Source: Candidatus Aminicenantes bacterium (GTDB lineage Bacteria; Acidobacteriota; Aminicenantia; Aminicenantales; CALLJL01). Taken from it: a stretch of DNA of 64,000 bases. Of this stretch, positions 12,399 through 51,585 are shown piece after piece; position 1 is the stretch's first letter; every line of letters starts with the position of its first letter. Both the position numbers and the translations under genes were made by a program. Below the pieces are notes generated by a model that saw only the letters and a program-made list of their open reading frames with translations, searched no databases and had not been told where the DNA came from. The DNA lies in contig JBBIRF010000007.1 in the NCBI GenBank assembly GCA_037441905.1, positions 17,219 to 81,218 of the forward strand, in the 5' to 3' direction.

Positions 12399-13067
12399 AT
12401 GAGTCTGATTAAACTAATCTTCGAAGCAAACTTAGTCGTCCAGCTGGTTCTTGTCATCCTGCTTTTATTTTCGGTTTTCTCCTGGGCGATAATTATTTAC
12501 AAAAGAAAATTATTCCGGGCGGCTGAACGCCATTCCTCCAGGTTCCTCAACGCTTTTCGCCGCGGCCGCAATTTGGCCGAGCTTAACGAAATCGCCCGCC
12601 AATGCAGGTCAAGCCCTCTCGTGCCCATCTTTCAAGCCGGGTATAAAGAACTTAGTTCCTCGTTGCCGAAACAAAACCCGCAGGCTTCTGGTCATTCTGG
12701 CCTAAAATTAGACAATTTGCAGCGTGCTTTGCTCCGGGCCTCGAACGCGGAAATTGCCAAGCTCGAAAGAATGATGAGTTTCTTAGCTACTACAGGTAGT
12801 GTTACTCCTTTCATCGGGCTATTCGGCACGGTTATCGGGATCATGGACGCTTTTCATAAGATCGGCATCGTCCGCTCGGCCAGCTTGAGCACGGTAGCTC
12901 CCGGAATTGCTGAAGCCCTGGTGGCTACAGCTGCCGGGCTATTTGCCGCCATCCCGGCAGTGATCGCCTATAACCATTTCCTCCACCAGGTCAAAAACAT
13001 GATTACGGAAATGGAAGATTTTTCGCTCGAATTCCTGAATATTGCCGAAAAACTTTATGGCGGTTAA
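12399..13067 (+). CDS. tolQ: Tol-Pal system protein TolQ (MotA/TolQ/ExbB proton channel)
   Basis: Three TM helices. Conserved TolQ/ExbB segment TTGSVTPFIGLFGTVIGIMDAF. Confidence 0.8.
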   Translation: MSLIKLIFEANLVVQLVLVILLLFSVFSWAIIIYKRKLFRAAERHSSRFLNAFRRGRNLAELNEIARQCRSSPLVPIFQAGYKELSSSLPKQNPQASGHSGLKLDNLQRALLRASNAEIAKLERMMSFLATTGSVTPFIGLFGTVIGIMDAFHKIGIVRSASLSTVAPGIAEALVATAAGLFAAIPAVIAYNHFLHQVKNMITEMEDFSLEFLNIAEKLYGG

Positions 13068-13497
13068 ACTAAATTCTCCGGTTAACTCGAAAACTCGCTT
13101 AGGAACTTCTCTGTCTGAAATCAACGTTACACCTCTGGTGGATGTAATGCTGGTTTTGTTGATTATTTTTATGGTCACTGCTCCGATGATGCAATCGGGA
13201 ATCGGCGTCAACCTGCCCCAGGCTGAGACCGAATCATCGCCGGCCGAAAGCGGGTTGACGATTACGATTACCAAAGACAGGTTTATTCATATGGGTGATT
13301 CCGTGGTTAACATCAACCTGTTGGAAAAAAGACTTATGGAATATTTTTATGGTCGAGATAAAAAAATCGTTTTTATCAAAGCTGATAAAGACATTCCCTA
13401 CGGTTTTTTCATCGAGACTCTGGATGTTATTAAGAAGGCCGGGGTAGAAACAGTCGGGCTTATCACCGAACCAACCGAGGTTGCAAGAAAAAAATAA
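13042..13497 (+). CDS. tolR: Tol-Pal system protein TolR (ExbD family)
   Basis: ExbD/TolR signature NVTPLVDVMLVLLIIFMV with a single TM. Probable true start is the internal Met of MAVKLN. Confidence 0.8.
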   Translation: MPKNFMAVKLNSPVNSKTRLGTSLSEINVTPLVDVMLVLLIIFMVTAPMMQSGIGVNLPQAETESSPAESGLTITITKDRFIHMGDSVVNINLLEKRLMEYFYGRDKKIVFIKADKDIPYGFFIETLDVIKKAGVETVGLITEPTEVARKK

Positions 13498-13509
13498 AGG
13501 AAGCGGCGG

Positions 13510-14298
13510 ATGAAGACTAACCATGGCTTTCGCCGGGCTGTTTTCGCTTCGGCTATTTTCCATACTGCTCTATTAGTCTTGCTCCTCATCTCCCCCTCGC
13601 TTCCCCGGCCGGCCAAGAAAGGGCCCGTATACTACCTGCCGCTTAGCCTTGTCAACCCTCCAGGAGGAGGCGGCGGAGGGGGAGGTGGTGGCGGGCCGTC
13701 AGCCGAGGGTGCGAAGGTGGCATCCAAACAGGCCTCCCTTCGAGACCTGACGACCCCGCAGAAAAAAACCGCCCCCGAGACCGAATCTTCACTCCGCTAT
13801 CCCGTGGACAAGAAGAAGGCCGCTAAGACACCGCCGGAAAAAAAGACGGTTATCTCGAAGCCCGAGCCTGAAGCGGCTGCCAAAAGCGGCGAGGCAACCG
13901 GCGCGCCCGCGGGGGGAGGGTTTGGGGCTGGCCTTCGTATCGGCGTTGGTCCTGGTCCTGGCGGTGGAGCTGGCGGAGGATGGAGCGGGGTTGACTTTGG
14001 TCTTTCCTCTTTTCCGTTTACTTATTATCTTCAAATAATCCAGGACCGAGTTTCAGCCAACTGGTTTACATCTCTAATCGACCCAGGGGTGGCCGGCCAG
14101 TTCCAATGCATTGTCTTTTTTAGGATTCTAAGGGACGGACGGGTTGTTGACCTTCAAATTGAGGTCTCGAGCGGCCTCAAGTCGCTCGACCTTTCTGCTT
14201 TAAGAGCCGTCCAGAACGCCACCCCATTCCCCCCGTTGCCCCGAGAATTCGAGGGGGATTCCTTAGGCATTCATCTGATTTTTGAGCATAGCCGATGA
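13510..14298 (+). CDS. tolA: TolA/TonB-family energy transducer (Gly/Pro-rich linker, TonB_C-like domain)
   Basis: N-terminal TM anchor. Poly-Gly and Pro/Lys-rich low-complexity linker. C-terminal TonB_C-like fold. Position between tolR and tolB. Confidence 0.6.
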
Positions 14299-15590
14299 AA
14301 AAACAATTCTTTTTCCTGGCCCCTTTCCTCCTTTTAGTTCTAATCATCGTCCGCTCAGCGCCCGAGCAAGAGGTTTACCTTAGAATCAGCGAAGGAGTCC
14401 CGGCCATTTCGCTGGCCCTTCCAAAGTTTGTCGTCAGCTCTTCCTCCCCTCAGGCTGCCCGAGCAGCCGAAGAAATTTATCAAGTCCTCGCGGAAGATTT
14501 GAAGTACAGCCGGATTTTCCAGTTACCGCCTCAAAGCTATTACACCTATATCCGACCGCTTGACCCCAAGAATATCATTTTTGAGGACTGGGAATCGATC
14601 CAGGCAAGGATATTGCTGGTAGGGGAAGTGAGCGGGGACAAAGAAAACGCCACTCTCGAAGCCAGGCTTTACGATGTCCGCAGTTCTAAATTTATCATGG
14701 GAAAAAGGTATCAGGGAAACCCACCGGCCTGGCGGCAAATAGCCCATCGGTTGGCGGACGAGATAATGAAGACGTTTGGCGAAAAACCGATTTTTTCTTC
14801 CCGGATTGTCTTCGTTTCCGACCGAGACGGAAACGACGAGCTGTACATCATGGATTATGACGGAGCCAACCAGACCCGTCTGACTTTTAACAAAACCCGC
14901 GATTACATGCCCGCCATTTCCCCTGACGGCCAAAAAATTGCCTTTACCTCTTACCGAGAAACTTTGGCCGGACTTTACCTCATGGACTTGACTAAGAGGA
15001 AAATCATCCCCGTCTCCACGCGGGGGACGAACTTCTCGCCATCCTTCTCACCCGACGGGAAGAAATTGGCCTTTTGCTCGACGATGGACGGCAATTCAGA
15101 AATTTATCTGGCCCGTCTCGGAACGGACACTGTCGAGGAAATTAAGAGGCTTACTTTTAACGAGGCCATCGACAATTCCCCCTTCTTATCGCCAACCGGG
15201 ACGGAGATTGCTTTCGTTTCTGACCGCGGCGGGACTCCCCAGATTTACATCATGGACGCCGAGGGTTCGAACCTCAGGCGAGTAAGCTTCGGCGGGACCT
15301 ATCATGATGCGCCGGCCTGGTCGCCAACCGGAGAGAGAATTGTCTACGTGTCGCGGCTCGACAACATCTTCGACCTCTATGTGCTCAACCTAAGGACAAA
15401 CCAGATTATTAAATTAACCGAAAGCAACGCTCGTAACGAGTCGCCCGCCTGGTCGCCTGACGGCCGGCACATCGTCTTTTCCTCCAACCTCAGCGGCTCC
15501 ATCCAAATCTATACTATTGATTATGACGGAGCCAACCTGAGGCGTTTGACTTCGGCGGGAAATAACAAGCTGCCGGACTGGTCATACTAA
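14295..15590 (+). CDS. tolB: Tol-Pal system beta-propeller protein TolB
   Basis: Signal peptide. Repeated SPDG/SPTG beta-propeller blades ([46 protein letters not shown]). Confidence 0.85.
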
Positions 15591-15719
15591 AGCTTGATTT
15601 TTCCGAAAATTATCATCTTTTGATTGACAGGGGATTTGGCCTTCCTTTAGAATGCCTTTGGACAAGGGAGAATAATGGAAGTTTCCTGGCCGAGATTTAT
15701 CAACAAAGAAGGAGGCTTT

Positions 15720-16274
15720 ATGAAAAAGGCTGTTTATTTGCTTTTTGTTGTCATCCTTGGTTTGGCCTTGCTTTCTTCCTGCAAGCCCAAGGTGAAAGAG
15801 GCCCCTCCCCCACCGCCCCCTCAGGTTAAAGAACAGCCGAAAGTCGAAAAGGTCGAGCCGCCCAAGGAGCCGGTAAAACCAGTCCTGACCGAAGAGGAGA
15901 TTTTCATGGCCCAATCCCTGGAGGAGGCCAACAAGGCTGGCTACTTGAAGATGATTCATTTTGACTACGACAAGTATAACATCCGGGATGATGCTCGTCC
16001 GGTGCTGGCTCAGAATGCAGCCTGGCTGAAAAAATTTCCTTCGGTAAAAGTGCTGATTGAAGGTCACTGCGACGAAAGAGGGACCGAAGAATATAACCTG
16101 GCTCTGGGAGAAAGAAGGGCTAAAGCAACTTTTGATTATCTGGTTTCGCTCGGCATTTCTCCAGATAGAATGAAGATCATCTCGTACGGCAAAAGCCAGC
16201 CCCTCGACCCCGGCCATAACGAGGAAGCCTGGGCCAAGAACAGAAGAGCTCAATTTACGATAATAGAAAAATAA
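15720..16274 (+). CDS. pal: peptidoglycan-associated lipoprotein Pal (OmpA-like domain)
   Basis: Lipobox LLSSC. OmpA-like C-terminal domain (IEGHCDERGTEEYNLALGERRA). ATG at 15720 is preceded by a GAAGGAGG RBS. Confidence 0.85.
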   Translation: MKKAVYLLFVVILGLALLSSCKPKVKEAPPPPPPQVKEQPKVEKVEPPKEPVKPVLTEEEIFMAQSLEEANKAGYLKMIHFDYDKYNIRDDARPVLAQNAAWLKKFPSVKVLIEGHCDERGTEEYNLALGERRAKATFDYLVSLGISPDRMKIISYGKSQPLDPGHNEEAWAKNRRAQFTIIEK

Positions 16275-16388
16275 GGATTTGCAGAAGGTTGAATATATAT
16301 TTGGAGTTATGACAAAAGGAAAGTAATGACAAAAGGGAGGAGTTAATAATATTATTTATAGAAAAGGAGCAAAACTAGGCGGGCAGGG

Positions 16389-17255
16389 ATGAAAAGAGAA
16401 AAAAAAGACCTCGCTTCCTTAGCCGTTGTCCTGTTCTTGTTTATCGGGGCGACTCTCCCAGACCAAGCGCAAAAAGTTTATGAGTTAATTTACGAGGATG
16501 TCCAAGTCTTAAAAAAGCAAATGCTCGTTTTTCAGGAAAGGCTCCAGACTCTGGCCTCGGAGCTCCAGGCGATAAAAACTCAGATTGAGAGCCTCCAGTC
16601 CTGGCTTAAAAACTACCAACAGGAACGAGCGGCCGACGAGCAGCGGCTGAAAGATATTCCCGTCCAGTATCAGATTGTCAGCGACCGGCTGGAACAACTG
16701 AGTTCCCGCCTGGATAAAATTGCCGAAGATTTGCTGACCATTCGGTCAGCGACTCTCCCTTCTCCTTCTGCCGAAACCAAAGCAACTCCGCCGACAGGAG
16801 CCGAAACGGCGAAGCCCACCAAGCCTGAAGCCCAGCCGGCAAAAGAAGCCCCGCCGACCGCTCCTCCTGCCGGTCCTTCCCCGCAAGAACTTTATAACAG
16901 CGCCTACAACGATTACTTGAAGGGAAATTTTGACCTGGCTATCGAAGGTTTTAAGCTCTACCGGGAACAATTCAGCGAGAGCCCGCTGGCAGATAACGCC
17001 CTTTACTGGGTGGGAGAATGCTATTTCAGCCAGAAAAAATTTGCCGAGGCCATTGCCGCCTTTAACGATGTTATCCTCTATTATCCAAAGGGGGATAGGG
17101 CGGCGGCCGCCTACCTCAAAAAAGGGCTGTGTTACATCGAAATGGGCCAGAAAGAAGAAGCCGTGGCCGTGTTCCGGCTGCTCATTAGCAAATTCCCGCT
17201 GGAAGAAGAGGCCAGAATCGCCCAACAAAAAATAAAGGAAATCACCGAAAAATGA
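16389..17255 (+). CDS. cpoB: Tol-Pal system protein CpoB/YbgF (coiled-coil plus TPR)
   Basis: N-terminal coiled coil. C-terminal TPR repeats (ALYWVGECYFSQKKFAEAIAAF, AAAYLKKGLCYIEMGQ). Last gene of the tol-pal cluster. Confidence 0.7.
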   Translation: MKREKKDLASLAVVLFLFIGATLPDQAQKVYELIYEDVQVLKKQMLVFQERLQTLASELQAIKTQIESLQSWLKNYQQERAADEQRLKDIPVQYQIVSDRLEQLSSRLDKIAEDLLTIRSATLPSPSAETKATPPTGAETAKPTKPEAQPAKEAPPTAPPAGPSPQELYNSAYNDYLKGNFDLAIEGFKLYREQFSESPLADNALYWVGECYFSQKKFAEAIAAFNDVILYYPKGDRAAAAYLKKGLCYIEMGQKEEAVAVFRLLISKFPLEEEARIAQQKIKEITEK

Positions 17256-21618: not shown

Positions 21619-22221
21619 TCAGCGCATTCTCCTTTCCATTTTGCGGAGGATTTCCTGGGGAGCATGGTACCCCTTTTTTCTCAAAAGATGAACCTTGCAG
21701 GCAATTTCAATCAGAGTGGCGATGTTTCGCCCCGGAGCGACCGGAATTATGAGTTGCGGCACCCTCACCCCCAGAATGTCATAATCGGCCGGGAATTCAA
21801 GGCCCAGACGGTCAAATTCGTCGCCCCGGTGCCACCTCTTAAGTTGAATGATAAGGTCTATCGGAATGGAAGCACAGACTGCTTTCGCCCCGAAGATTTC
21901 CTTGATGTTAATCAAGCCTAACCCCCGCAATTCCATAAAATTCCGGGTGAGACGAGGGGCCTGGCCTTTTAGCCTACCAGTCGTCGTCTTCTTAACTTCG
22001 ACCACGTCGTCGGAGATAAAGCGGTGGCCCCGGGTAATCAACTCCAAGGCGCTTTCACTTTTGCCCACCCCGCTATCGCCCATAATCAGGACGCCGAGCC
22101 CGTAAATTTCGAGCAACCCGGCAGAAATTACGGCCATCGGTTCAACCGAGTTTCTTTTAGACGATTTCTGACCCATCGACCGCTCGGGAAGAGAGGGCAG
22201 GCAACGCCCCCGTTTATTCAT
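21619..22221 (-). CDS. hprK: HPr kinase/phosphorylase, short form (C-terminal kinase domain only)
   Basis: P-loop GDSGVGKSESALELI followed by HRFISDDVVEV and the capping motif LRGLGLINI. Only 200 aa, so no N-terminal domain. Confidence 0.75.
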   Translation of the reverse strand: MNKRGRCLPSLPERSMGQKSSKRNSVEPMAVISAGLLEIYGLGVLIMGDSGVGKSESALELITRGHRFISDDVVEVKKTTTGRLKGQAPRLTRNFMELRGLGLINIKEIFGAKAVCASIPIDLIIQLKRWHRGDEFDRLGLEFPADYDILGVRVPQLIIPVAPGRNIATLIEIACKVHLLRKKGYHAPQEILRKMERRMR

Positions 22222-24733: not shown

Positions 24734-25459
24734 TCATGAAAGACGGAAATCCTCGCCCAAATATCTCTTCCTGACTTCTGGTGAGTAAACGATTTCGGCC
24801 GGCGTGCCTGTTTCTAAAACTTCCCCCCGGTCGATTATCGCCGCCCGGTCGGTAATCTTCAGCGTTTCGCGGACGTTATGGTCGGTTATAAGAATTCCCA
24901 AACCTTGATTCTTCAACCGTAAAAGAAGCTGTTGAATTTCCAGGGTGGCTAAGGGGTCGATTCCCGTAAACGGCTCATCAAGAAGAAGAAAATCGGGGCT
25001 GACGACCATCGACCTGGCCAGTTCAAGCTTTCTTCGTTCCCCGCCTGAAAGCAAGGCGGCTTTTGTCCGTCGCAGTTCTTTTAGCCCAAATTCCTGGAGA
25101 AGCGCGTCAATATCAGTCTGCCCTTTCTCTTCCCTTGAGACCATCTCCTGAATTGCCAGCAGGTTTTCTTCTACAGTCAACCCTAAAAAGACCGATGGCT
25201 CCTGCGGTAAAAGCCCTATCCCGGCCTGGGCTCTTAAGTACATAGGCCAGCTGGTAATGTCCTCGTTGCCAAGATAAACCCGGCCCTTGTCGGCGGGAAT
25301 AAGGCCGGCCAAGATGCCAAAAGTGGTTGTTTTCCCCGCCCCGTTAGGACCTAAAAGACCGACAACCTCCCCCGGCTTAATCGCGAGCGAAACCTGGTTT
25401 AGAACTTTCCGGCGGCCAAAGCTTTTTTCCAATTTTTCCGCCTGCAAACAGCAAATCAT
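24734..25459 (-). CDS. lptB: LPS export ABC transporter ATP-binding protein
   Basis: Walker A GPNGAGKTT, ABC signature LSGGERRKLE, Walker B LLLDEP. Immediately upstream of rpoN, as in E. coli. Confidence 0.85.
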   Translation of the reverse strand: MICCLQAEKLEKSFGRRKVLNQVSLAIKPGEVVGLLGPNGAGKTTTFGILAGLIPADKGRVYLGNEDITSWPMYLRAQAGIGLLPQEPSVFLGLTVEENLLAIQEMVSREEKGQTDIDALLQEFGLKELRRTKAALLSGGERRKLELARSMVVSPDFLLLDEPFTGIDPLATLEIQQLLLRLKNQGLGILITDHNVRETLKITDRAAIIDRGEVLETGTPAEIVYSPEVRKRYLGEDFRLS

Positions 25460-27327
25460 TTTTCTTTTTTGATAACAGAAAGAGAGCGTTCACGACCCTG
25501 ATTTTCCACGAGGATTCTACCATCGGCCAGATAGAAAGTCAATTTATCCCCCCTGATTTTACCCTGTTGGGCGTCTTCCAAAACCGGATTTCCTTCGAGA
25601 ATAAAAACATCCTTTTCCCATTCGTATCGGCCCTCGTTAGCCGTGGCTTTGGTGCCGTTTTTCATCAGCTCTACCTTTCCCTTGGCTTCGAGAGTTTCGG
25701 GGTCGGCTGAATCCCTGGAAAGATAGATGAAGACCTCGCCGCTTTTGACCCGCCAGTTCTTCGCTCCCATCTCGCACGGGCCAGCAAAACGCAACTTTCG
25801 GGCTGAGGGTTCATATCGAAGCTGCGAGGCAGCAATCAGAACCAGGCGCAACGGCGACGCCTCCTTCCTGGCCTTTCTTACGGCTACCATTTTTACGCCG
25901 TCATGGGCTTCTAATTCCTGAGTCTCGCTGTCCAGAATAATCTTATCTGCCTGTAAAGATGTCTCTTCTTGCCATAGCCTTACGCCCCCCTCCAAGACCA
26001 GCCGATGCTGCTGCCAATGAAAAAGAAGGAGCGAAGCCATACCGTAAACTTGTTTTTCTCCAGAAAAAAGATGGCTTTCGGTGGCTGGCTTGGTTCGCGC
26101 AGGTTTTATGACCAGTTGAACTCCCTCCCGGGCTTCGAGGTCTTGAGTCTCGATATTCAGAGTCATTTCCGCCGCCGTCACCGCCACCCTCTCCGAGACC
26201 AAACTGGCTGCCTTCTTCTCAGGGCTTTTTATCTCAAGATGACTCTTCTGCGGGAGATAATCGACCTTCTCTCCCCGGCCTTCAACCGTCTCAGCCGTGG
26301 TCAGGTTCTGCCTCCTCCACTTCGCCTCCTTGTTTAATTTTAATTCGCGCAATTTCCCCCAGCGGTCGAGAATAATCGCCAGGTTCTCGGCGGCAAAAAC
26401 TGTCTCGCTCTCCTTGTTTTTCACGGTGAGCGAACCACTCCCGTCAGCTTCAACAGCATGCGGCCGGGATGAGCTGGCAAAAGGTCTTACCAGAACATGA
26501 TTCGCTTCCAGAGAAATCTTCGTTGCCTCACTTATCCCCTCTCCCTTTACTCCCCCGCCTAACTCAAGTCGCTGCAAGTATAGCTCATCCTCCGAGAGCA
26601 GAAACTCGGCCCAACCAGCCTCGCCGGTATTTTCAGCCTGAAAAAAATGGACGTTTCCCTCGAGCCGTCCCTTATGCTGCTGGCGTTCGTAAAACAGGTT
26701 CTCACTTTCCAACCGGTAAGGAGCCAGGTCCGGCGTTTCAGGCCGCCACGTTACTTTCACCCCACCTCTAAAAATTATCACTTCATCCGGAAAAGAATAA
26801 GACATCTCCCGGGCCTCGACACGAAGTCTTTTAAATTGAAGGCTGACATGTCCTTCGGCCCCCAAGGATTCCTGCTGGCGCCGGTAAATAATCTTGTCCG
26901 CGGCTATCTCGACCCCCTGGCGTTTGACCGACACCTTACCGGTCAAAACAACACCGTTCCAGTCGACATCGTAAACAGCAGCTTCGGCCGTGGCCCACGC
27001 CTCGAGCTCAGGACGGCGGCCAAAATCATGGATTTCCACTCCCCCTTCCAGACGATAATGTTGTTCATCAACAGCCAGATGGCGTTCAGCTTTGACCTCA
27101 ATTCTTCCCAGGTCGCCCTTGAATTCAACAAACCTGACTTTAGTTTGTTGCTCAATTTTTTGGCCGGGGAGCAACGGCTCAGAAGGTGTCGGCCGCGGCT
27201 GAGGCCTTCTTATCCCCCCGGAAATAAAAATAAAATAAATAATGACCAGCAAGATGCTCAAGAAAAGCGCTAAAGCTAAACCGCGAAGAACATAGATAAA
27301 AAGAATTTTTCTTGTCTTCTTCATCAC
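25456..27327 (-). CDS. LptC/LptA-family (OstA-like) periplasmic protein with N-terminal membrane anchor and multiple beta-jellyroll repeats
   Basis: N-terminal TM helix. Remainder is all-beta with repeated OstA_N-like units. Occupies the lptC-lptA slot upstream of lptB. Confidence 0.5.
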   Translation of the reverse strand: MMKKTRKILFIYVLRGLALALFLSILLVIIYFIFISGGIRRPQPRPTPSEPLLPGQKIEQQTKVRFVEFKGDLGRIEVKAERHLAVDEQHYRLEGGVEIHDFGRRPELEAWATAEAAVYDVDWNGVVLTGKVSVKRQGVEIAADKIIYRRQQESLGAEGHVSLQFKRLRVEAREMSYSFPDEVIIFRGGVKVTWRPETPDLAPYRLESENLFYERQQHKGRLEGNVHFFQAENTGEAGWAEFLLSEDELYLQRLELGGGVKGEGISEATKISLEANHVLVRPFASSSRPHAVEADGSGSLTVKNKESETVFAAENLAIILDRWGKLRELKLNKEAKWRRQNLTTAETVEGRGEKVDYLPQKSHLEIKSPEKKAASLVSERVAVTAAEMTLNIETQDLEAREGVQLVIKPARTKPATESHLFSGEKQVYGMASLLLFHWQQHRLVLEGGVRLWQEETSLQADKIILDSETQELEAHDGVKMVAVRKARKEASPLRLVLIAASQLRYEPSARKLRFAGPCEMGAKNWRVKSGEVFIYLSRDSADPETLEAKGKVELMKNGTKATANEGRYEWEKDVFILEGNPVLEDAQQGKIRGDKLTFYLADGRILVENQGRERSLSVIKKEK

Positions 27328-29139: not shown

Positions 29140-29698
29140 TAAGCCAGGCTTACTCTAATACAGGGCATTGACAAGCCTTTTTTGTCGGGATTTATATTTT
29201 TGAGCAAAGGTTGACAGGGATGCGGCAAGTCTTGTTTATTAGCCGAAAGATGTTGGTAAATGAATTATACTTCGCGCCCAAATTTTTGGCTCTTTAACTT
29301 CAATATCTTTATCTCTATAAATTCAATTGCCGGCTGAACTCCCTTCCTGTTGGGCTTCCAGCGGACAAGACAGATCCCAATCCCCCAGATTATGACGCTG
29401 CTGTCTAAAATTCCGGGATTTATACTCAAACTCAACCTTACCTTTGTCTCTGCTTTACCGGTTTTCCTATAGGCAATACAGTCGGGAAAACTGGGTTTAA
29501 TTTAATCTATTCCAATTAGCCAAACCAAATGCGATCATACTATAAATAACGTTCGCCCAAGCCGGATGAATGATTCGTGGTTATTGATAATTTATTTCTA
29601 TCGACTGAATACAGTAAAGATGCCATAAAATCAAACCTTTATAAAACCTTCCGTTTACTGTTAAATAGAGATATCAAGGTGCAAGAATAAGATAGGAG

Positions 29699-31168
29699 GT
29701 GTCTATGAGAAAAAAATATTTATGGCTATTTTTAATTTTTCTTTTCTTATTCTTGGTGGCTACCCGGCTTTCATATGCTCAAGAGAAAACGCCGGCTAAG
29801 GTCGACTACTCTGAAGCTCTCAGACTGATTGATGTTTGGCTTGAAGCTCAGCGCGATTACGAACGACTTCCCGGAATGTCTGCAGCCATCGTAGAAAACC
29901 AGGATGTAATCTTTGCCCGGGCCTACGGTCTTTCAGACCTTGAGAAAAAAGTGAAAGCCACTCCCGAAACAATTTACAGCATCTGCTCAATCTCCAAACT
30001 TTTTACATCCGTGGTCATCATGCAGCTCCGCGACGCCGGAAAACTCAGGCTTGACGATGAAGTAAGCGACCATCTTCCCTGGTTCAACATCAAGCAGCAG
30101 TATCCGGATAGCGGATCGATTACCATCCGTTCACTCCTCACTCATTCTTCCGGACTCCCGCGTGAGTCTGATTATCCTTACTGGAGCAAACCTGATTTTC
30201 ATTTTCCAACCAGAGAACAGCTCAAGGAAAAGCTGGCACAGCAAAAAACCCTCTATCCCCCGTCCACCTATTTTCAGTACAGCAACCTGGGAATTAGCTT
30301 GCTGGGAGAAATTGTGGCTGAGATCTCAGGAATGTCCTATGATGACTACGTCACTGAAAAAATCCTGAAACCCCTCGGCATGAAAGACACCCGCCCCTAC
30401 CTTCCCAAAGAACTCTGGCGGGGACAGCTGGCCACGGGCTACAGCTCATTAACTCGCGACGGAACAAGAGAGATGCTGCCATTTTTTCAGGCAGAAGGGA
30501 TCAAGCCAGCAGCCGGCTTTTCTTCAACCGTCCTGGATTTAGCAAAATTTGCTTCCTGGCAGTTCAGGCTTCTGGAAAAAGGCGGCGAAGAAATTCTCAA
30601 AGCTCCAACCCTTCGCGAAATGCACCGCGTCCACTGGATGGACCCCGACTGGAAGACTTCCTGGGGGCTGGGTTTTTCAGTCTATGAAATGGACGGAAAG
30701 ACCATCGTTGGACACGGAGGCTCCTGCCCTGGCTACCGAAGCACCCTGATGATTGACCCCGGCAAAAAACAGGCTTTTGTGGTAATGATAAACGCTTCTG
30801 GAACCGAGCCAGAAAAATATGCCAGGGGGATGAGAGAAATCTTGAAAAAGGCAGCTACCAAAAAAGAAGGCCCGACCCCGACCAGCGTAAATCTCGAAGA
30901 TTATGCCGGCTATTATGATGCTCAACCGTGGTGGGGAGAAACAGTAATTGTCCCCTGGCAGGGAAACTTAGCCATGGTCAGCCTTCCAGCCGACAATCCT
31001 GTCCAGGGGTTTACCCTTTTCAGGCACATCGGGGGAGACATTTTCCGGCGGATACGGGATGATGAAACACTGGGTGAAGAACTCGTATTTGAACGGGACA
31101 AATCCGGTAAAGTGATTCGCTTTATCCGGCACAGCAATTATTACCCGAAGATTAGACCTCTTAATTGA
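29699..31168 (+). CDS. secreted serine hydrolase of the beta-lactamase/PBP (class C-like) family
   Basis: Signal peptide. S-x-x-K active-site motif SISK. YxN-like motif (YSN). C-terminal lipocalin-like extension. Confidence 0.75.
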   Translation: MSMRKKYLWLFLIFLFLFLVATRLSYAQEKTPAKVDYSEALRLIDVWLEAQRDYERLPGMSAAIVENQDVIFARAYGLSDLEKKVKATPETIYSICSISKLFTSVVIMQLRDAGKLRLDDEVSDHLPWFNIKQQYPDSGSITIRSLLTHSSGLPRESDYPYWSKPDFHFPTREQLKEKLAQQKTLYPPSTYFQYSNLGISLLGEIVAEISGMSYDDYVTEKILKPLGMKDTRPYLPKELWRGQLATGYSSLTRDGTREMLPFFQAEGIKPAAGFSSTVLDLAKFASWQFRLLEKGGEEILKAPTLREMHRVHWMDPDWKTSWGLGFSVYEMDGKTIVGHGGSCPGYRSTLMIDPGKKQAFVVMINASGTEPEKYARGMREILKKAATKKEGPTPTSVNLEDYAGYYDAQPWWGETVIVPWQGNLAMVSLPADNPVQGFTLFRHIGGDIFRRIRDDETLGEELVFERDKSGKVIRFIRHSNYYPKIRPLN

Positions 31169-36507: not shown

Positions 36508-36786
36508 ATGGCTCGGCATCAATCGGCTATCAGACAAAGGCGACGGAGCGAGCGCCGCAGGGCTATCAACCGCCGGAATAAATCGCTGTTGCGGACGCAA
36601 ATCAAGAAACTGCGGCAAGCGATTAAGGAAAAAAACGCCGACCAGGCCCGCCAGCTTCTGGCCCCAACCTTTTCCCTTATTGATAAATGTGTTAAAAAAG
36701 GCACGATTCACGAGAATAAGGGCTCGAGGTATAAATCCCGGCTGAGCGCCCAGGTCGCCCAGCTCGTAGCCGGGTTCAGACGCTAA
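36508..36786 (+). CDS. rpsT: 30S ribosomal protein S20
   Basis: Basic helical 92-aa protein. N-terminus MARHQSAIRQRRRSERRRAINRRNKS is typical of bS20. Confidence 0.85.
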   Translation: MARHQSAIRQRRRSERRRAINRRNKSLLRTQIKKLRQAIKEKNADQARQLLAPTFSLIDKCVKKGTIHENKGSRYKSRLSAQVAQLVAGFRR

Positions 36787-37897
36787 CGAAAGCAACCTCT
36801 GTCTCTCGCTTATCAAAAAACCAGTTTATAAGCTCAAAAAGCATAACGTCGACGAGGTCACTGCCGCTTTTTGAAGCCTGGTCAACTGTCCGGAGTTTCC
36901 TCAGCAGCTCGGCCAAATCTTCCTCGTCCCAGTCTTTGACCGCTTGAAAAAAGACGTCTCTCTTTTTCCTGATAAATTCAGGCGCAAATCTTTGCAGCCC
37001 GGGCCGCACCTGTTCGAAGATTTGAACCTCGTTTTTCCCCTCGGCCAGCCAGCGCCGGGCGAGAAGCAGTTCGCGGAAAAACTGGGCTAAAGCACCCACC
37101 GTATACTCTTTCCCTCTTTTGTCCTCGAGAAGCTTGCTCAGGGCCTGGAGGGCCGCTTTTCTGTTGCCTTCCTCCAGCGCCTGGGTCAATTCATACTGCT
37201 GGTAGGCCCTGATGGCCGGACAAACCGCAGCCACGTCCTCCAGCTCTATCTCCTTTTTCCCCTGGCAATAGAGGACCAGCTTCTCCAGCTCTTGCGCCAG
37301 AGACCTCAGGTCAGGTCCGGTGGCGTCGATAAGGCAATTGATCGCCTCTTCGCTCATTCTCATCCTTTGTTGCGCCAGGCGGTCAACCACCCATTTCCTT
37401 AGGGCCAGACCCTTGAGTTGTCGGCATTCTTTAATTTCCACGCCGGCGGGGCCAAGAGAATGAAGAAAGCGATAAAGGCTATTATTCCTATCTATTCTCC
37501 CGGGATAGTAAATAATCAGCTTCTCTTGTTGCCCCATAGAGGTGATTAACTGGCGTAACCTTTCTTCCTCAAAAGGCGTCAGGACGGCCCGGCTGGCCCC
37601 GACATCGGCCTCTTCCGTGGTTTCTTCGCTGGCTTCCTCCTCCTCTTCCGCCACGACGAGAGCCATTTTTTTCCCGACATAAAACAGCGAGCCAGTCTGC
37701 AACGCTTCGATGATGGCTATCCAGCTTGTCTCCCGCAAGGAAAACCGGAAGAACCCCTCCCTTTCTTCTTCCGCCGAGGTAAAAAACGACCTCCTGAGGT
37801 CAGCGACTATTTCTTCCGCCAGGAGTGTTTCCTCTCCGTAAAGAAAAAGCACCCTCGGCTCGCTTGAAGCCTGCCGGGAAGTGGTCCTGGCCGGCAT
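36776..37897 (-). CDS. holA: DNA polymerase III subunit delta
   Basis: Size and position downstream of leuS-lptE, a conserved trio. Helical clamp-loader delta-like composition. Weaker sequence-level evidence. Confidence 0.6.
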   Translation of the reverse strand: MPARTTSRQASSEPRVLFLYGEETLLAEEIVADLRRSFFTSAEEEREGFFRFSLRETSWIAIIEALQTGSLFYVGKKMALVVAEEEEEASEETTEEADVGASRAVLTPFEEERLRQLITSMGQQEKLIIYYPGRIDRNNSLYRFLHSLGPAGVEIKECRQLKGLALRKWVVDRLAQQRMRMSEEAINCLIDATGPDLRSLAQELEKLVLYCQGKKEIELEDVAAVCPAIRAYQQYELTQALEEGNRKAALQALSKLLEDKRGKEYTVGALAQFFRELLLARRWLAEGKNEVQIFEQVRPGLQRFAPEFIRKKRDVFFQAVKDWDEEDLAELLRKLRTVDQASKSGSDLVDVMLFELINWFFDKRETEVAFVSV

Positions 37898-37899
37898 GC

Positions 37900-38409
37900 T
37901 TAAAACCCCTCGAGAATAGCCACGACCAGGCTGCGGGCAAACTTTTCCGCAACCCGGTTGAGGGCCTCGGCTTCCATCGATTCAAAATCGGCGCCTTCCG
38001 GAACTTCATACTCCTCAACATAGATGAAAGACGGATGGTCAAAAAGGACCTGCTGCCTCGCCCTGTCCAGGAGATTAATTTTAGCCACAATGGTAATATT
38101 ATACCGGTCAGCGGTGTCCTTCCCGGAAAAGGCAATCGGGTTGACTTGAAAAGAGGTGATTTCGCCGAGCAGGACGGCATCCGCCTGTTCCGCCTGGCTG
38201 ACCAATTCCAGCTTTCCCCGGGTGGTAAGCTCGTTGATGACCGCCTGGGTCAACTTCAGGTCGAGTTCATACCGGGTCGTCAGGTTCTTAAAAACTGGAA
38301 TATAAATTTTTTTAACCGAGGACGGAAGCGACGTCCCCACGCCTCTCAAGTGATAACCGCAGGAAGCGAGGAAGCCGAGGAGAAGAATTACGACGGCTTT
38401 CTGCCTCAA
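37900..38409 (-). CDS. lptE: LPS-assembly lipoprotein LptE
   Basis: Lipobox LASCG. About 170 aa. Located between leuS and holA exactly as in E. coli. Confidence 0.6.
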   Translation of the reverse strand: MRQKAVVILLLGFLASCGYHLRGVGTSLPSSVKKIYIPVFKNLTTRYELDLKLTQAVINELTTRGKLELVSQAEQADAVLLGEITSFQVNPIAFSGKDTADRYNITIVAKINLLDRARQQVLFDHPSFIYVEEYEVPEGADFESMEAEALNRVAEKFARSLVVAILEGF

Positions 38410-38418
38410 TTTTTCATC

Positions 38419-40908
38419 CTAAATTACGATGTTCACTAACTTGTTCTCGACGGTGACTACCTTCTTGACGGTTTTTCCCTTGATAATTTCTTTAATCCGA
38501 CCAAGCTCGAGGGCTCTGGCCTTGATTTCCTCGGCCGAAATCTCAGCCGGAGCTTCAAACCGGTCCCGCAGTTTGCCGTTTACCTGGACGACAACCGTAA
38601 TCATCTCCTCCTGGGCTAATTCCGGGTCGAACGAAGGCCACGGAGTCTTAATTAAGTAGGTAGAATGCCCGGTTCTTTGCCAGAGTTCTTCACAAAAATG
38701 AGGCGTAAACGGCGAAAGCAAGGTCAACAACTGTTCGAGGCCAAACCGCAGCACGGAGCGGCCTTCGGCCGACGTCCGCAGCTGGTCTTTAACCCGCCGG
38801 ATTTCGTTATGCAATTCCATCAGGGCACTGATAGCCGTATTCAGGTGAAAACGCTTCCCGATGTCTTCCGTCACCTTCTTGATGGTTTTGTGAACCCGGC
38901 GGAGGAATTTAACGGCGTTTTCCTGGGTAATTTCCTCCGGCCGGACGGGCTCGCTCCCGCCGGAAAACAGGTCCTCGTTTTCTTCAAAGGTATTCCAGAC
39001 ACGGTTAAGGAAGCGAAAGCAGCCTTCGATTCCTTCCTCGGTCCAGGCAAACTCTTTTTCCGGCGGCGCGGCAAAAAGAATGAACAGGCGAAGCGAATCA
39101 GCGCCGTAACGAGCAATCATCTCGTCCGGGTCAACAATATTACCCCTTGATTTGGACATGGCGGCGCCGTCTTTGGTAACCATCCCCTGGGCAAGATAGT
39201 GGGGGAAGGGTTCGTTGAGCGAAGTCAACCCCAGGTCGCGTAACACCTTGGTAAAAAAGCGAGAATAGATCAAGTGCAAAATAGCATGCTCCACCCCGCC
39301 GATGTATAAATCAACCGGCATCCAGTAGGCGGCCGCTGCTGGGTCGAAAGGCAGGTTCTTCTCGTCCGGGGAGGCATAACGAAAGAAATACCAGGAAGAA
39401 TCAAAAAAAGTGTCCATCGTGTCGGTTTCCCGCCTCGCCGGTCCTTTACACCGAGGACAGGTCGTGTTGACAAACTCCTGGACCTTTTCAAGAGGAGAGC
39501 CTTCCTCGCCGGTAAACTTTGTTTCATAGGGCAGAACAACCGGCAAATCCTCGTACGGGACGCCGACAATACCGCAGCGGTCACAATGGACGACAGGGAT
39601 GGGCGTTCCCCAGTACCTTTGTCTGGAAATGCCCCAGTCTCGGAGCCGGTAAATAATCGTCTTGCTGCCGATTCCTCTGGCCTCAGCCTCCCGGCCCATC
39701 GCCTCGATGGCTTCCCGGGAAGAAAGACCTGAATAGGGTCCAGAAGAAACGAGTTTTCCGTAGTCCTCGAAAGCGGCTTCAAGCGGCAGCTTCACCTCGG
39801 AATCACCCTCCGGAACCACGACCACCCGGATAGGCAAGCCATATTGGCGGGCAAACTCAAAATCTCTCTGGTCATGGGCTGGGACCGCCATGATGGCTCC
39901 TGTCCCGTAATCCATCAGGACATAATTGGCAATCCAGATCGGAATGAGCTCGCCAGTAAAGGGATTCAAGGCTTTTTTCCCTGTATCAACGCCTTCCTTC
40001 TTCGTCTCCGCCTGCCTCCTCCGCTGCCTTGATTCCAGGATAACCCGGTTAAGCCAGGCTTCGATTTTTTCTCTTTCCGGCAAATCTGCGATTAATTCCC
40101 GGCTGAGAGGATGTTCAGGCGAGAGAAGAAGGAAAGTTGCCCCGTAAACGGTATCGAGCCTGGTGGTAAAAACTTCGATGGAACGAGAACCGTCCTTGAG
40201 AGGAAAAAGAAGGCTGGCCCCCTCGCTCTCGCCAATCCAGTTCCGCTGCATCAGCAGGACATGCTCGGGCCATTTGGCAAGCTCGGCGTGGCCGGCAAGC
40301 AATTCCCTGGCATAAGCCGTGATTTTTAAGAACCAATGGTCCATCTGCTTTTGTTCGACAGGGCTCGAACATCGCCAGCACTGGTCGCCGGCCGCCTGTT
40401 CGTTGGCCAAAACCGTCCGGCATTGAGGGCACCAGTTTACCCAGCTCTTCCGCCTGAACGCCAGGCCTCGCTCGAACATTTTGAGAAAAATCCATTGGTT
40501 CCATTTGTAGTACTCCGGAAGGCAGGTGTTAACCTCCCGGGACCAATCATAACTGAACCCGAGCCGCCGGAGCTGGGTCTTCATCGTGGCAATGTTGTTT
40601 AACGTCCAGTCTCGCGGATGAATCCCGTGTTTAATGGCCGCATTCTCGGCCGGCAGCCCCAACGCATCCCAGCCCATCGGATGAAGAACATTGTACCCCT
40701 GCATGATCATGAACCTGGAGATGACATCGCCGATCGAGTAATTGCGGACATGTCCCATATGAATCCGGCCGGAGGGATAGGGGTACATCTCCAGGCAGTA
40801 AAATTTCTTCCGCTCGGGGTCCTCCTTAACTTCGAAAACTTTCTCTTCCTCCCAGATGCGCTGCCATTTGGGTTCAATTTCTTGAAAATTATAACCTTCC
40901 TTCTTCAT
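38419..40908 (-). CDS. leuS: leucine--tRNA ligase
   Basis: Class I aaRS motifs: HMGH (HIGH-type) and KMSKS. CP1 editing domain. 829 aa. Confidence 0.9.
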   Translation of the reverse strand: MKKEGYNFQEIEPKWQRIWEEEKVFEVKEDPERKKFYCLEMYPYPSGRIHMGHVRNYSIGDVISRFMIMQGYNVLHPMGWDALGLPAENAAIKHGIHPRDWTLNNIATMKTQLRRLGFSYDWSREVNTCLPEYYKWNQWIFLKMFERGLAFRRKSWVNWCPQCRTVLANEQAAGDQCWRCSSPVEQKQMDHWFLKITAYARELLAGHAELAKWPEHVLLMQRNWIGESEGASLLFPLKDGSRSIEVFTTRLDTVYGATFLLLSPEHPLSRELIADLPEREKIEAWLNRVILESRQRRRQAETKKEGVDTGKKALNPFTGELIPIWIANYVLMDYGTGAIMAVPAHDQRDFEFARQYGLPIRVVVVPEGDSEVKLPLEAAFEDYGKLVSSGPYSGLSSREAIEAMGREAEARGIGSKTIIYRLRDWGISRQRYWGTPIPVVHCDRCGIVGVPYEDLPVVLPYETKFTGEEGSPLEKVQEFVNTTCPRCKGPARRETDTMDTFFDSSWYFFRYASPDEKNLPFDPAAAAYWMPVDLYIGGVEHAILHLIYSRFFTKVLRDLGLTSLNEPFPHYLAQGMVTKDGAAMSKSRGNIVDPDEMIARYGADSLRLFILFAAPPEKEFAWTEEGIEGCFRFLNRVWNTFEENEDLFSGGSEPVRPEEITQENAVKFLRRVHKTIKKVTEDIGKRFHLNTAISALMELHNEIRRVKDQLRTSAEGRSVLRFGLEQLLTLLSPFTPHFCEELWQRTGHSTYLIKTPWPSFDPELAQEEMITVVVQVNGKLRDRFEAPAEISAEEIKARALELGRIKEIIKGKTVKKVVTVENKLVNIVI

Positions 40909-50676: not shown

Positions 50677-51585
50677 TCAGCGGAAATAAATAAAAGAAAT
50701 CTGAACGCCGAGTTCTCGTTCGTCCTTTGAGTTCGGGTTTAGTTTTGCCGGGATAAAGGTTTTATCAGCCGTTACCACGAGCCGAAATTCGTCCCTGTCT
50801 CCGAGCATCTCCTTTTTGATATTGTATGTTTTTTCGAAAGCGCTTTCCGTCGGGACGAATTCTTCCAAGACTGTGTCGTTTATCTTAAATATAACTTTTT
50901 GACCCGGGACCGCCTCGAGGTTGACCCCGCCCCGGATAACCAGGGTAGCGTCCCGATGGGGGTTATCAATAACGCAGACAGCCTCTTTGGCCGTCCAGCG
51001 CCACTGTTTCAGGAAGGCGTTCGGGTCGATTTCAAGGTCATACCAGCCATTCTCGTAAATTATCTCGGGAGTATCAGGAGGCGGCGGGACAACGGTGAGC
51101 TTCTTAACCAGGACCTCGGACTTGGATTTTCCTGTCCGGTCGTAGGGGGAATAAAGGCCAACCACTAAACGCAGCGTTTCCTCACCTTTAAACTCGGGGT
51201 CAAACTCGTCGATGAACTTAGGAATATATATTCGTCTTACGTAGCTGTATTCTTTATCGGGCTCCCATTTGGAGGTGGGTACAGAAGGGACATGGTCATC
51301 CTGGAAAAGCAGGTTATTCCTGTGCCAGAAATGAACATAAACATTTAAATCATTTTCCAGGGGGGCAAAGTCCTTGGTGGTTTTCCATTTATACTGCATA
51401 TCGGTTAACAGGTTGTCGCTCAGGGTTTTTTCGGCAAAACCGACTGCGAGCTCCAACCCTTTTATCTCGACCTTTTTCTGACATGAACCTAAAGCCAAAA
51501 AGAGAGCTAAAATCATGCCGAATGATAACCAGCGCTTCATGACCAACCTCCGGCTAAAATCTTTTATTTTTTGATTATAAGGCAA
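50677..51585 (-). CDS. hypothetical lipoprotein
   Basis: Lipobox LALGSC after an internal Met (MKRWLSF is the probable start). Beta-rich. No recognisable family. Confidence 0.45.
   Translation of the reverse strand: MPYNQKIKDFSRRLVMKRWLSFGMILALFLALGSCQKKVEIKGLELAVGFAEKTLSDNLLTDMQYKWKTTKDFAPLENDLNVYVHFWHRNNLLFQDDHVPSVPTSKWEPDKEYSYVRRIYIPKFIDEFDPEFKGEETLRLVVGLYSPYDRTGKSKSEVLVKKLTVVPPPPDTPEIIYENGWYDLEIDPNAFLKQWRWTAKEAVCVIDNPHRDATLVIRGGVNLEAVPGQKVIFKINDTVLEEFVPTESAFEKTYNIKKEMLGDRDEFRLVVTADKTFIPAKLNPNSKDERELGVQISFIYFR

What the first reader, a model, noticed from the sequence alone, without database searches (positions are those of the whole stretch)
25456..27327. Giant (623 aa) LptC/LptA-like protein in the lptC-lptA slot of the rpoN operon
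The locus is otherwise arranged as in E. coli (lptC-lptA-lptB-rpoN-hpf-ptsN-rapZ), but a single 623-aa ORF precedes lptB. It has an N-terminal TM anchor like LptC, followed by roughly three times the length of LptA in all-beta OstA-like repeats. This could be a fused, multi-module LPS bridge spanning the periplasm as one polypeptide instead of as LptC plus oligomeric LptA.
Basis: partly seen in the sequence, partly recalled or inferred. Interest (0 to 1): 0.55.

Follow-up and report, generated by a model that had tools for sequence, protein, structure and literature searches.

The report
Single-chain fused LptC–LptA LPS bridge
In this Aminicenantes/Acidobacteriota genome, the two proteins that normally form the periplasmic bridge carrying lipopolysaccharide to the outer membrane (membrane-anchored LptC and self-associating LptA) are replaced by one 623-residue membrane-anchored protein worth about four such modules, which probably fixes the bridge length in the gene.

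Summary
A 623-aa ORF (25456-27327, minus strand) starts 9 nt after recJ, and its stop overlaps the lptB start (ATGA). rpoN-hpf-ptsN-hprK-rapZ follow. It passes the curated cut-offs of both LptC models (PF06835, TIGR04409) and both LptA/OstA models (PF03968, five stretches; TIGR03002).

It has an N-terminal transmembrane helix and no cleavable signal peptide. AlphaFold2 (pLDDT 85, pTM 0.72) gives a helix, a short disordered linker, then 39 β-strands from residue 60 to 616. Foldseek matches only LptD N-terminal domain, LptA, LptH and LptC.

The β-region equals about 33 β-ladder rungs, roughly LptC plus three LptA, or about 160 Å by inference. The family is large: 141 clusters at 50% identity with E≤1e-30. 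All full-length members carry the anchor. Forms of 700-921 aa keep both ends and expand the middle. The three relatives of 773, 837 and 921 aa whose loci were read are each directly followed by an ABC-ATPase gene in the lptB position.

No other OstA-like gene lies in the 64-kb window or in the flanks of homologous loci. Apparent stand-alone LptA hits were truncated or frameshift-split fused genes. I could not show that the rest of the genome lacks a free LptA.

No description of a natural fusion was found in the searchable literature. Verdict: a real new variant of a known system, of moderate to high interest.

The parts
25456..27327 (-). Whole fused lptC-lptA(n) gene, 623 aa plus stop
   Evidence: ORF list; Pfam and NCBIfam hits above cut-offs; 14 full-length homologs; AF2 model with pLDDT 85
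27214..27321 (-). N-terminal transmembrane signal-anchor (residues ~3-38), equivalent to the LptC TM helix
   Evidence: Hydropathy 2.5-2.9 over residues 11-39; AF2 helix 3-34; an anchor is present in essentially all full-length family members
27154..27213 (-). Disordered, poorly conserved tether (residues ~39-58) between the membrane anchor and the first jellyroll
   Evidence: pLDDT <50 for residues 36-57; lowest conservation in the family
26731..27153 (-). Module 1, the LptC-like beta-jellyroll (residues 59-199, 9 long strands)
   Evidence: PF06835 LptC matches residues 112-191 and TIGR04409 matches 111-193; PF03968 also matches 114-193; Foldseek matches LptC structures 4b54 and 3my2 with TMt 0.76-0.77
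26116..26730 (-). Central diverged OstA-like beta-run (residues 200-404, about 12 rung equivalents). This is the part that is expanded in the 700-921 aa relatives
   Evidence: The iterated module profile hits 200-279 (iE 8.5e-12) and 284-404 (iE 9.6e-13). Strands are continuous in AF2 with pLDDT around 90. There is no direct Pfam hit on 190-346 alone. Expansion in relatives is shown
26050..26115 (-). Surface loop (residues 405-426) with lower model confidence
   Evidence: pLDDT about 56, no strands
25855..26049 (-). Half-module of four long strands (residues 427-491) containing the family-invariant W452-Q453
   Evidence: PF03968 stretch at 425-472; module profile hit 421-491 with iE 3e-12; conservation
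25480..25854 (-). C-terminal canonical LptA-like jellyroll (residues 492-616, 5 long plus 6 short strands, equal to 8 rungs as in LptA)
   Evidence: PF03968 matches 498-601 across profile positions 2-110 of 113, and TIGR03002 matches 497-614. It aligns to crystallised LptA residues 7-124 with E 7e-6. It is the most conserved module in the family
25456..25479 (-). Highly conserved C-terminal tail (residues 617-623, '...SVIKKEK') plus the stop codon. Inferred docking edge for the LptD N-terminal domain
   Evidence: Highest conservation in the family (2.24 bits per column, 60% median identity), although residues 613-623 have pLDDT <50. The docking role is an inference
24734..25459 (-). lptB (ABC ATPase), with its start overlapping the fused gene's stop (ATGA)
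   Evidence: PF00005 at 3e-33; junction sequence; same adjacency in L001, L006, L008 and L009
37900..38409 (-). lptE (outer-membrane translocon partner), showing that the rest of the Lpt pathway is present
   Evidence: PF04390 LptE at 3e-14; leuS-lptE-holA synteny also seen in L001

Best explanation
The gene encodes a natural fusion of LptC with several LptA-type beta-jellyroll modules. It serves as the periplasmic lipopolysaccharide bridge of an Aminicenantes/Acidobacteriota cell.

Proposed mechanism:
- The N-terminal helix anchors the protein in the inner membrane, where it associates with the LptB2FG ABC transporter as the LptC helix does.
- The LptC-like first jellyroll receives LPS from LptF/G.
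- LPS acyl chains then slide along one continuous, covalently linked OstA-type groove of about 33 beta-rungs. That is roughly LptC plus three LptA, or about 160 A.
- The conserved C-terminal LptA-like module and tail dock edge-to-edge on the N-terminal jellyroll of LptD, which with LptE inserts LPS into the outer membrane.
- Because the modules are covalently linked, the bridge stoichiometry and length are set by the gene rather than by LptA self-association.
- Relatives change the length by adding or removing beta-hairpin units in the middle while keeping both docking ends.

What is shown: homology, domain order, membrane anchor, predicted fold, operon position, family breadth and the length classes.

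What is inferred: LPS as the cargo, the LptF/G and LptD contacts, the physical length, and the absence of a free LptA.
For: Homology and fold:
- Profile hits to both LptC and LptA/OstA models lie above the curated cut-offs.
- The C-terminal module aligns along its whole length with crystallised LptA.
- The AF2 model has pLDDT 85 and pTM 0.72, with a TM helix followed by 39 consecutive strands.
- Foldseek top hits are exclusively Lpt jellyrolls. For the window model, TMt is 0.65-0.77 to LptA and LptC. For the 837-aa relative, TMt is 0.85 to LptC 4b54 and 0.77 to LptA 2r19.
- Internal repeats detected with a module profile tile residues 104-616.

Genomic context:
- The gene has an ATGA overlap with lptB and occupies the lptC-lptA slot of the rpoN operon.
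- The relatives of 624, 773 and 921 aa sit directly upstream of lptB-rpoN. The 837-aa one is followed by an unannotated partial ORF at its contig end.
- The genome makes lipid A and has the outer-membrane end of the pathway: LpxK and a lipid A acyltransferase, LptE, and Tol-Pal components.

Family:
- 141 clusters at 50% identity reach E<=1e-30, and essentially all full-length members carry the anchor.
- The strongest conservation is at the C-terminal edge and tail.

Absence of other candidates:
- There is no other OstA-like ORF in the window or in the flanks of related loci.
- Candidate stand-alone LptAs lacked signal peptides. Those examined were fragments of fused genes.

Plausibility from the literature:
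- An engineered E. coli LptC-LptA fusion forms a stable complex with LptB2FG and supports LPS transfer to LptD in vitro (PMC12065857).
Against: - The genome outside the 64-kb window could not be searched, so a free LptA or LptC elsewhere is not excluded.
- lptD and lptF/G of this organism were not seen, so the docking partners are assumed.
The continuity of the groove and the ~160 A length are inferred from the strand pattern and 4.8 A per rung, not measured.
- The central 200-404 region has no direct Pfam hit when scanned alone, and profile-profile comparisons between modules were weak, with at most 74% probability. Its OstA homology rests on the iterated family profile and the predicted fold.
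- The TIGR04409 LptC score (40.0) is only just above its cut-off (38).
- There are no experimental data.
Confidence: 0.72

Rival explanations
1. It is an over-long LptC. The fused protein extends from the inner membrane only part of the way, and a separate soluble LptA encoded elsewhere in the genome still completes the bridge to LptD.
For: JGI pipelines label the ~830-aa relatives simply 'LptC'. In many non-proteobacterial genomes the lpt genes are scattered (PMC8871954). About 160 A may be shorter than some periplasms. For comparison, an E. coli model with four LptA copies gives a 290 A membrane centre-to-centre distance (bioRxiv 10.1101/2023.04.28.538765).
Against: The C-terminal module is the most LptA-like and the most conserved part. 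TIGR03002, an LptA equivalog model, scores 97 bits against a cut-off of 71.7. No stand-alone LptA with a signal peptide turned up when searching with that module's profile; the hits read had no signal peptide, and those examined were truncated or frameshifted fused genes. No second OstA gene lies near lptB in any of the loci inspected. With the LptD N-terminal jellyroll added, the estimated span of about 200 A is already periplasm-sized.
Confidence: 0.2
2. It is a beta-rich protein unrelated to LPS transport, for example an AsmA/TamB-like phospholipid bridge or an adhesin, that happens to sit next to lptB.
For: Weak Foldseek matches to other beta-groove lipid carriers (LPD-3, ApoB100) and to teneurins appear lower in the lists.
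Against: The specific LptC and LptA profiles are matched above their curated cut-offs. The best structural matches are all Lpt proteins with probability 1.00. The gene overlaps lptB and keeps that position across deep divergence.
Confidence: 0.03
3. It is an artefact in which two adjacent genes (lptC and lptA) were merged by an assembly or frameshift error.
For: Metagenome assemblies do contain indels. L009 and L010 show broken genes in this very locus.
Against: The errors seen go the other way, splitting a fused gene. More than 100 independent clusters at 50% identity from different samples and assemblers have the same uninterrupted 600-660 aa ORF aligned end to end. There is no internal signal peptide or linker, and strands continue across the LptC-like/next-module boundary in the model.
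Confidence: 0.01

Closest known systems
LptC (E. coli YrbK; PF06835 / TIGR04409)
   Same: N-terminal single-pass membrane anchor followed by an OstA-type beta-jellyroll. The gene lies in the lptC slot upstream of lptB. The profiles are matched above cut-off and the structural match has TMt 0.76-0.85.
   Different: E. coli LptC ends after one jellyroll (about 190 aa). Here the sheet continues for about 420 more residues with no break.
LptA (E. coli YhbN; P. aeruginosa LptH; PF03968 / TIGR03002)
   Same: The C-terminal module (residues 492-616) aligns over essentially the whole crystallised LptA. It has the same 8-rung, 16-strand jellyroll. The upstream segments are detectably homologous to it.
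   Different: There is no signal peptide and the protein is not soluble. Head-to-tail non-covalent oligomerisation is replaced by covalent tandem modules, some of them partial or expanded. In E. coli the stoichiometry is uncertain (PMC6164715), whereas here it is fixed by the gene.
Engineered E. coli LptC-LptA fusion protein (PMC12065857)
   Same: LptC and LptA in one polypeptide. It forms a stable complex with LptB2FG and delivers LPS to LptD in vitro.
   Different: It is a laboratory construct with one LptA. The protein here is natural, conserved across a phylum-level lineage, carries about three LptA equivalents, and comes in several length classes.
AsmA-like / TamB / YhdP / YdbH intermembrane bridges (repeating beta-groove proteins)
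   Same: The concept is the same: one inner-membrane-anchored polypeptide forms a long continuous hydrophobic beta-groove across the periplasm (PMC11126948, listed).
   Different: It is a different fold family and a different cargo (phospholipids), with no ABC transporter coupling. Only weak, low-ranked structural similarity was seen.
Borrelia burgdorferi LptA (BB0465) with an extended jellyroll
   Same: It shows that Lpt bridge modules can be lengthened by adding beta-strands, at about 5 A per strand (bioRxiv 10.1101/2022.12.21.521298).
   Different: It is still a separate, secreted LptA extended by only four strands, and LptC (BB0464) is a separate lipoprotein.

Membership tests
LptC (PF06835 / TIGR04409) | Sequence matches the family profile above the curated threshold | tested here: met
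   PF06835 scores 34.1 bits against a cut-off of 21. TIGR04409 scores 40.0 against 38, a narrow margin. The match covers residues ~111-193.
LptC (PF06835 / TIGR04409) | Bitopic topology: one N-terminal TM helix with a periplasmic jellyroll | tested here: met
   Hydropathy; AF2 helix 3-34 followed by beta-structure; conserved in the family.
LptC (PF06835 / TIGR04409) | Gene adjacent to, and upstream of, lptB (the lptCAB arrangement) | tested here: met
   ATGA overlap with lptB. The same position is kept in L001, L006, L008 and L009.
LptC (PF06835 / TIGR04409) | Binds LptF/LptG and modulates LptB2FG | not testable with these tools
   lptF and lptG are not in the window, and no multimer modelling or experiment was possible.
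LptA (PF03968 / TIGR03002) | Sequence matches the family profile above the curated threshold | tested here: met
   PF03968 scores 94.8 bits against 20.4, with 5 stretches. TIGR03002 scores 97 against 71.7. The PDB LptA alignment covers residues 494-605 against LptA 7-124. The enterobacterial equivalog NF008143 is not met (40 against 234), as expected for a distant phylum.
LptA (PF03968 / TIGR03002) | Secreted soluble periplasmic protein with a cleavable signal peptide | tested here: not met
   The only N-terminal hydrophobic segment is a ~23-residue uninterrupted anchor that is retained as a helix in the model. The LptA-like modules are internal or C-terminal. So this is not an LptA in the strict sense, but contains LptA modules.
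LptA (PF03968 / TIGR03002) | 16-strand OstA beta-jellyroll fold | tested here: met
   The C-terminal module has 5 long plus 6 short strands, equal to 8 rungs. Foldseek TMt is 0.65-0.75 to 2r19, 2r1a and 4uu4. This is a predicted structure, not an experimental one.
LptA (PF03968 / TIGR03002) | Head-to-tail contact with LptC at its N-terminal edge and with the LptD N-terminal domain at its C-terminal edge | not testable with these tools
   The N-terminal contact is replaced by covalent continuity. The LptD contact is inferred only from the extreme conservation of the C-terminal edge and tail.
Lpt trans-envelope bridge (functional system) | Binds and transports LPS or lipid A | not testable with these tools
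   The support is indirect. LpxK, a lipid A acyltransferase, LptB and LptE are encoded in the same window.
Lpt trans-envelope bridge (functional system) | This protein is the only LptA/LptC-type component in the genome, so that the fusion replaces both | tested here: inconclusive
   There is none in the 64-kb window or the flanks of five related loci. The search for stand-alone relatives found only fragments of fused genes. Whole genomes could not be scanned.

The most novel reading that the evidence does not exclude
Across Acidobacteriota, including Aminicenantes, the periplasmic LPS bridge is a single gene-encoded polypeptide with no free LptA. Its length is tuned by inserting or deleting beta-hairpin units in the middle, from about 33 rungs in the 620-aa forms to about 43 in the 837-aa form, and more in the 921-aa form. 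Gene length would then act as a molecular ruler for the inner-membrane-to-outer-membrane distance in each lineage. That would provide a natural, stoichiometrically defined full-length Lpt bridge for structural study.
Probability: 0.4. Interest if true: 0.72.

Novelty: new variant of a known kind. Interest (0 to 1): 0.6.

Why it matters
How many LptA molecules make up the LPS bridge, and how the bridge length is matched to the width of the periplasm, are still described as unresolved for E. coli (PMC6164715; bioRxiv 10.1101/2023.04.28.538765). LptA's tendency to oligomerise also complicates reconstitution (PMC12065857).

A natural lineage in which LptC and about three LptA equivalents are one polypeptide gives a system with a fixed, readable stoichiometry. 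It offers:
- A direct test of the length-matching idea, by comparing the 620-aa, ~830-aa and 921-aa forms with the periplasmic widths measured by cryo-ET.
- A well-behaved target for structures of a complete bridge.
- An evolutionary data point on whether modular Lpt jellyrolls arose by fission of a long protein or by fusion of short ones.

It also matters for annotation. Pipelines call these proteins either 'LptA' or 'LptC', so presence/absence surveys would score the other component as missing.

Tried and rejected
- **Whole-genome check for separate lptA/lptC.** Instead I ran an HMM built from the family against all six-frame ORFs of the window and five related loci, and found nothing beyond the fused gene.
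- **Search with a profile of the C-terminal module (A2).** It returned only short proteins. None of the eleven sequences read had a signal peptide. L009 is a 520+213 aa frameshift split of one gene, shown by the open upstream frame and the nonsense tail. L010 is a heavily fragmented assembly. They were rejected as evidence for a free LptA.
- **Exact look-up of the window protein (P0001).** No contig on record.
- **Model coordinates.** They are not exposed in the sandbox, so groove continuity, twist and end-to-end length could not be measured. I used DSSP strand counts instead.
- **Profile-profile comparison of arbitrarily cut quarters.** Only weak signals, at most 74% probability. An iterated module profile was more informative.
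- **Pfam scan of residues 190-346 alone.** No hit.
- **Literature.** Seven full-text searches found no description of a natural LptC-LptA fusion or multi-module LptA. Putker et al. 2015 (FEMS Microbiol Rev) is not held, so a mention there cannot be excluded.
- **Cluster member look-up.** It gave no names or organisms.
- **Promoter and terminator scans of the operon.** Nothing above the shuffled background.
- **Artefactual gene merger and unrelated beta-rich protein.** Both were considered and rejected (see the rival explanations).
Full report
**1. The observation**

The ORF is present exactly as described: 25456..27327 on the minus strand, 623 aa from a GTG start. The next codon is ATG, which NCBI used for the identical 622-aa protein P0001.

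The gene begins 9 nt after the recJ stop codon. Its TGA overlaps the ATG of the next gene in the sequence ATGA.

The downstream genes are lptB, rpoN, hpf, ptsN, a C-terminal-only hprK, rapZ, EIIA-Man, HPr and enzyme I. This is the E. coli lptB-rpoN-hpf-ptsN-rapZ-npr order with one inserted gene. Promoter-like and terminator-like motifs in the operon do not exceed the shuffled background.

**2. What the protein is**

Four curated profiles are matched above their own cut-offs:

| Model | Score (bits) | Cut-off | Region |
|---|---|---|---|
| PF03968 LptD_N/LptA | 94.8 | 20.4 | five stretches |
| TIGR03002 LptA | 97 | 71.7 | residues 497-614 |
| PF06835 LptC | 34.1 | 21 | residues 112-191 |
| TIGR04409 LptC | 40.0 | 38 | residues 111-193 |

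Scanning sub-segments places OstA-type matches at 114-193, 425-472 and 498-601. The stretch 190-346 is not recognised on its own. A family profile searched against PDB sequences aligns residues 494-605 with residues 7-124 of crystallised LptA.

The N-terminus has an uninterrupted hydrophobic run of about 23 residues. That is too long for a cleavable signal peptide, so I read it as a signal-anchor like that of LptC.

AlphaFold2 with the 14-sequence family alignment gives mean pLDDT 85.2 and pTM 0.72. The model has helix 3-34, a disordered tether at 36-57, then 39 beta-strands from residue 60 to 616. Confidence drops in only two loops, 408-426 and 485-493.

Foldseek against the PDB returns the LptD N-terminal domain, LptA (2r19, 2r1a), LptH (4uu4) and LptC (4b54, 3my2, 6mit_C). 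Probability is 1.00 and target-normalised TM-scores are 0.65-0.77 for the single-module proteins.

**3. Module anatomy**

A jackhmmer profile seeded on the C-terminal module and iterated within the family tiles the protein:
- 104-199
- 200-279
- 284-404
- 421-491
- 490-616, which matches the full module

The independent E-values for these segments range from 1e-11 to 5e-38.

I counted rungs by scoring long (bent) strands as one and short strands as half:
- LptC-like module: 9 rungs
- C-terminal module: 8 rungs, as in the 16-strand LptA jellyroll described in PMC6164715
- Whole protein: 33 rungs

That corresponds to LptC plus about three LptA equivalents.

At 4.8 A per rung this is about 160 A. 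This is an inference; the ~5 A per strand figure is consistent with the Borrelia modelling paper. Adding the LptD N-terminal jellyroll would give roughly 200 A, which is on the scale of a periplasm. For comparison, an E. coli model with four LptA copies gives a 290 A membrane centre-to-centre distance.

I could not measure the model directly because the coordinates are not exposed.

**4. The family and its context**

The word-indexed search found 14 full-length homologs of 43-78% identity with the same Pfam pair. The exhaustive profile search of 1.84 billion cluster representatives found 141 clusters at E<=1e-30. Most are 600-660 aa and align end to end. A second population is 700-921 aa.

Essentially every full-length member of both populations has the N-terminal anchor. 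The sequences lacking it are obvious fragments.

Genome hits are Candidatus Aminicenantes MAGs. A partial protein nearly identical to the C-terminus of the 765-aa form is labelled Blastocatellia. The architecture therefore spans Acidobacteriota in the broad sense.

Synteny is conserved:
- recJ-X-lptB-rpoN-hpf-ptsN-hprK-rapZ at 44% identity (L001).
- The 921-aa form on a 6.38-Mb contig sits in the same recJ-X-lptB-rpoN-hpf-rapZ slot (L006).
- The 773-aa form directly precedes lptB-rpoN-rapZ (L008).

The long forms keep the LptC-like and LptA-like ends and add repeat segments in the middle. A second AF2 model, of the 837-aa P0016, has pLDDT 84.5 and pTM 0.66. It shows the same layout with 43 rungs instead of 33. 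Its Foldseek TM-scores are 0.85 to LptC 4b54 and 0.77-0.78 to LptA 2r19.

Within the ~620-aa class, conservation is highest in the C-terminal module. It peaks in the last 30 residues, including a tail that AF2 leaves disordered. I interpret that as the docking edge for LptD.

**5. Is there a separate LptA or LptC?**

- An HMM of the family found no other OstA-like ORF in the 64-kb window or in the +/-10 kb flanks of five related loci.
- Searching with a profile of C-terminal modules returned only short proteins.
- None of the eleven sequences read has a signal peptide. They begin mid-structure and include the conserved 'WQ' half-module that precedes the last module in the fused proteins.
- One on a 1.6-Mb contig is the 3' piece of a 520+213 aa split, directly upstream of lptB. 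The downstream frame stays open upstream of its called start, while the tail of the upstream ORF is out-of-frame nonsense. recJ next door is also broken. This is an assembly indel, not a real split.
- Another lies in a heavily fragmented assembly.

No stand-alone LptA was found, but this is negative evidence from limited searches. The whole genome could not be scanned.

**6. Biological setting**

The window also encodes LpxK and a lipid A acyltransferase. It encodes LptE in the leuS-lptE-holA arrangement and Tol-Pal components. The organism is a lipid-A-producing diderm that needs an Lpt pathway.

**7. Mechanism proposed**

The anchor and LptC-like module couple to LptB2FG. LPS travels along one covalently continuous OstA groove. 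The conserved C-terminal LptA-like edge hands LPS to LptD/E.

- Shown: homology, order, anchor, predicted fold, operon coupling, conservation pattern and length classes.
- Inferred: the cargo, the partner contacts, the physical length and the dispensability of free LptA.

An engineered E. coli LptC-LptA fusion is functional in vitro (PMC12065857), which supports feasibility.

**8. Comparison and novelty**

The protein contains an LptC module and LptA modules. It is not a member of LptA in the strict sense, because it is not secreted or soluble; that feature was tested and not met. It works like LptC plus oligomeric LptA. Conceptually it resembles single-chain AsmA/TamB-type bridges, but with the OstA fold and coupling to an ABC transporter.

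Seven full-text searches found no description of a natural fusion or multi-module LptA. One key review could not be read.

Databases already hold these sequences, annotated inconsistently as 'LptA', 'LptC' or 'LptA/OstA family protein'. The domain combination is therefore visible to anyone who looks.

I rate it a new variant of a known kind, with interest 0.6. It bears on the open question of LptA stoichiometry and offers a natural, defined full-length bridge. However, the key claim that there is no free LptA is still unproven.

Noticed in passing
window 21619-22221 (-): The HprK/P-like gene between ptsN and rapZ has only the Hpr_kinase_C domain (200 aa). A related acidobacterial locus (L009) has a full-length 323-aa HprK with the N-terminal domain in the same position.
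   Followed up: partly
window 25456-25488 (-), residues 613-623: The extreme C-terminal tail of the fused Lpt protein ('RERSLSVIKKEK') is the most conserved part of the whole family, yet AF2 gives it pLDDT <50. It looks like a partner-dependent docking strand.
   Followed up: partly
window 51776-53997 (+): The LpxK ORF is 431 aa but the Pfam match starts only at residue 78, so it has either an N-terminal extension or a start called too early. Its stop overlaps the start of a lipid A biosynthesis acyltransferase gene (53068-53997).
   Followed up: no
window 59338-61677 (+): In this 779-aa ORF the class I/II aminotransferase domain covers only residues 30-388. The C-terminal ~390 residues have no Pfam match.
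   Followed up: no
window 50677-51585 (-): A 302-aa ORF with a lipoprotein-like N-terminus ('...LALGSC') and no Pfam family hit.
   Followed up: no
window 36776-40908 (-): The gene order leuS-lptE-holA is the same as in E. coli, and it is conserved in the 44%-identity relative L001.
   Followed up: partly
window 12399-17255 (+): A Tol-Pal-type envelope cluster: a TolQ-like MotA/ExbB protein, a TonB_C/TolA-like protein, TolB, and a YbgF/CpoB-like TPR protein. It lies next to ssb, and the OmpA/Pal-like gene is seen at the matching place in L001.
   Followed up: no
window ~29140-29698: GC content drops to about 0.40 in the 560-bp intergenic region between recJ and a divergently oriented beta-lactamase-family gene (29699-31168). 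The rest of the region is 0.49-0.56.
   Followed up: no
L009 4445-6642; L010: Long-read metagenome assemblies (ERZ25039588, ERZ25039462) carry indel errors that split the fused lpt gene, and recJ beside it, into pieces. These pieces are then annotated as separate 'LptC' and 'LptA'-like proteins, which is a trap for presence/absence surveys.
   Followed up: yes
P0016, P0162 and related proteins (L006, L007, L008): Length classes of the fused protein (about 620, 700-770, about 830 and 921 aa) differ by expansion of the central beta-run only. Pipelines label the short class 'LptA' and the long class 'LptC'.
   Followed up: partly
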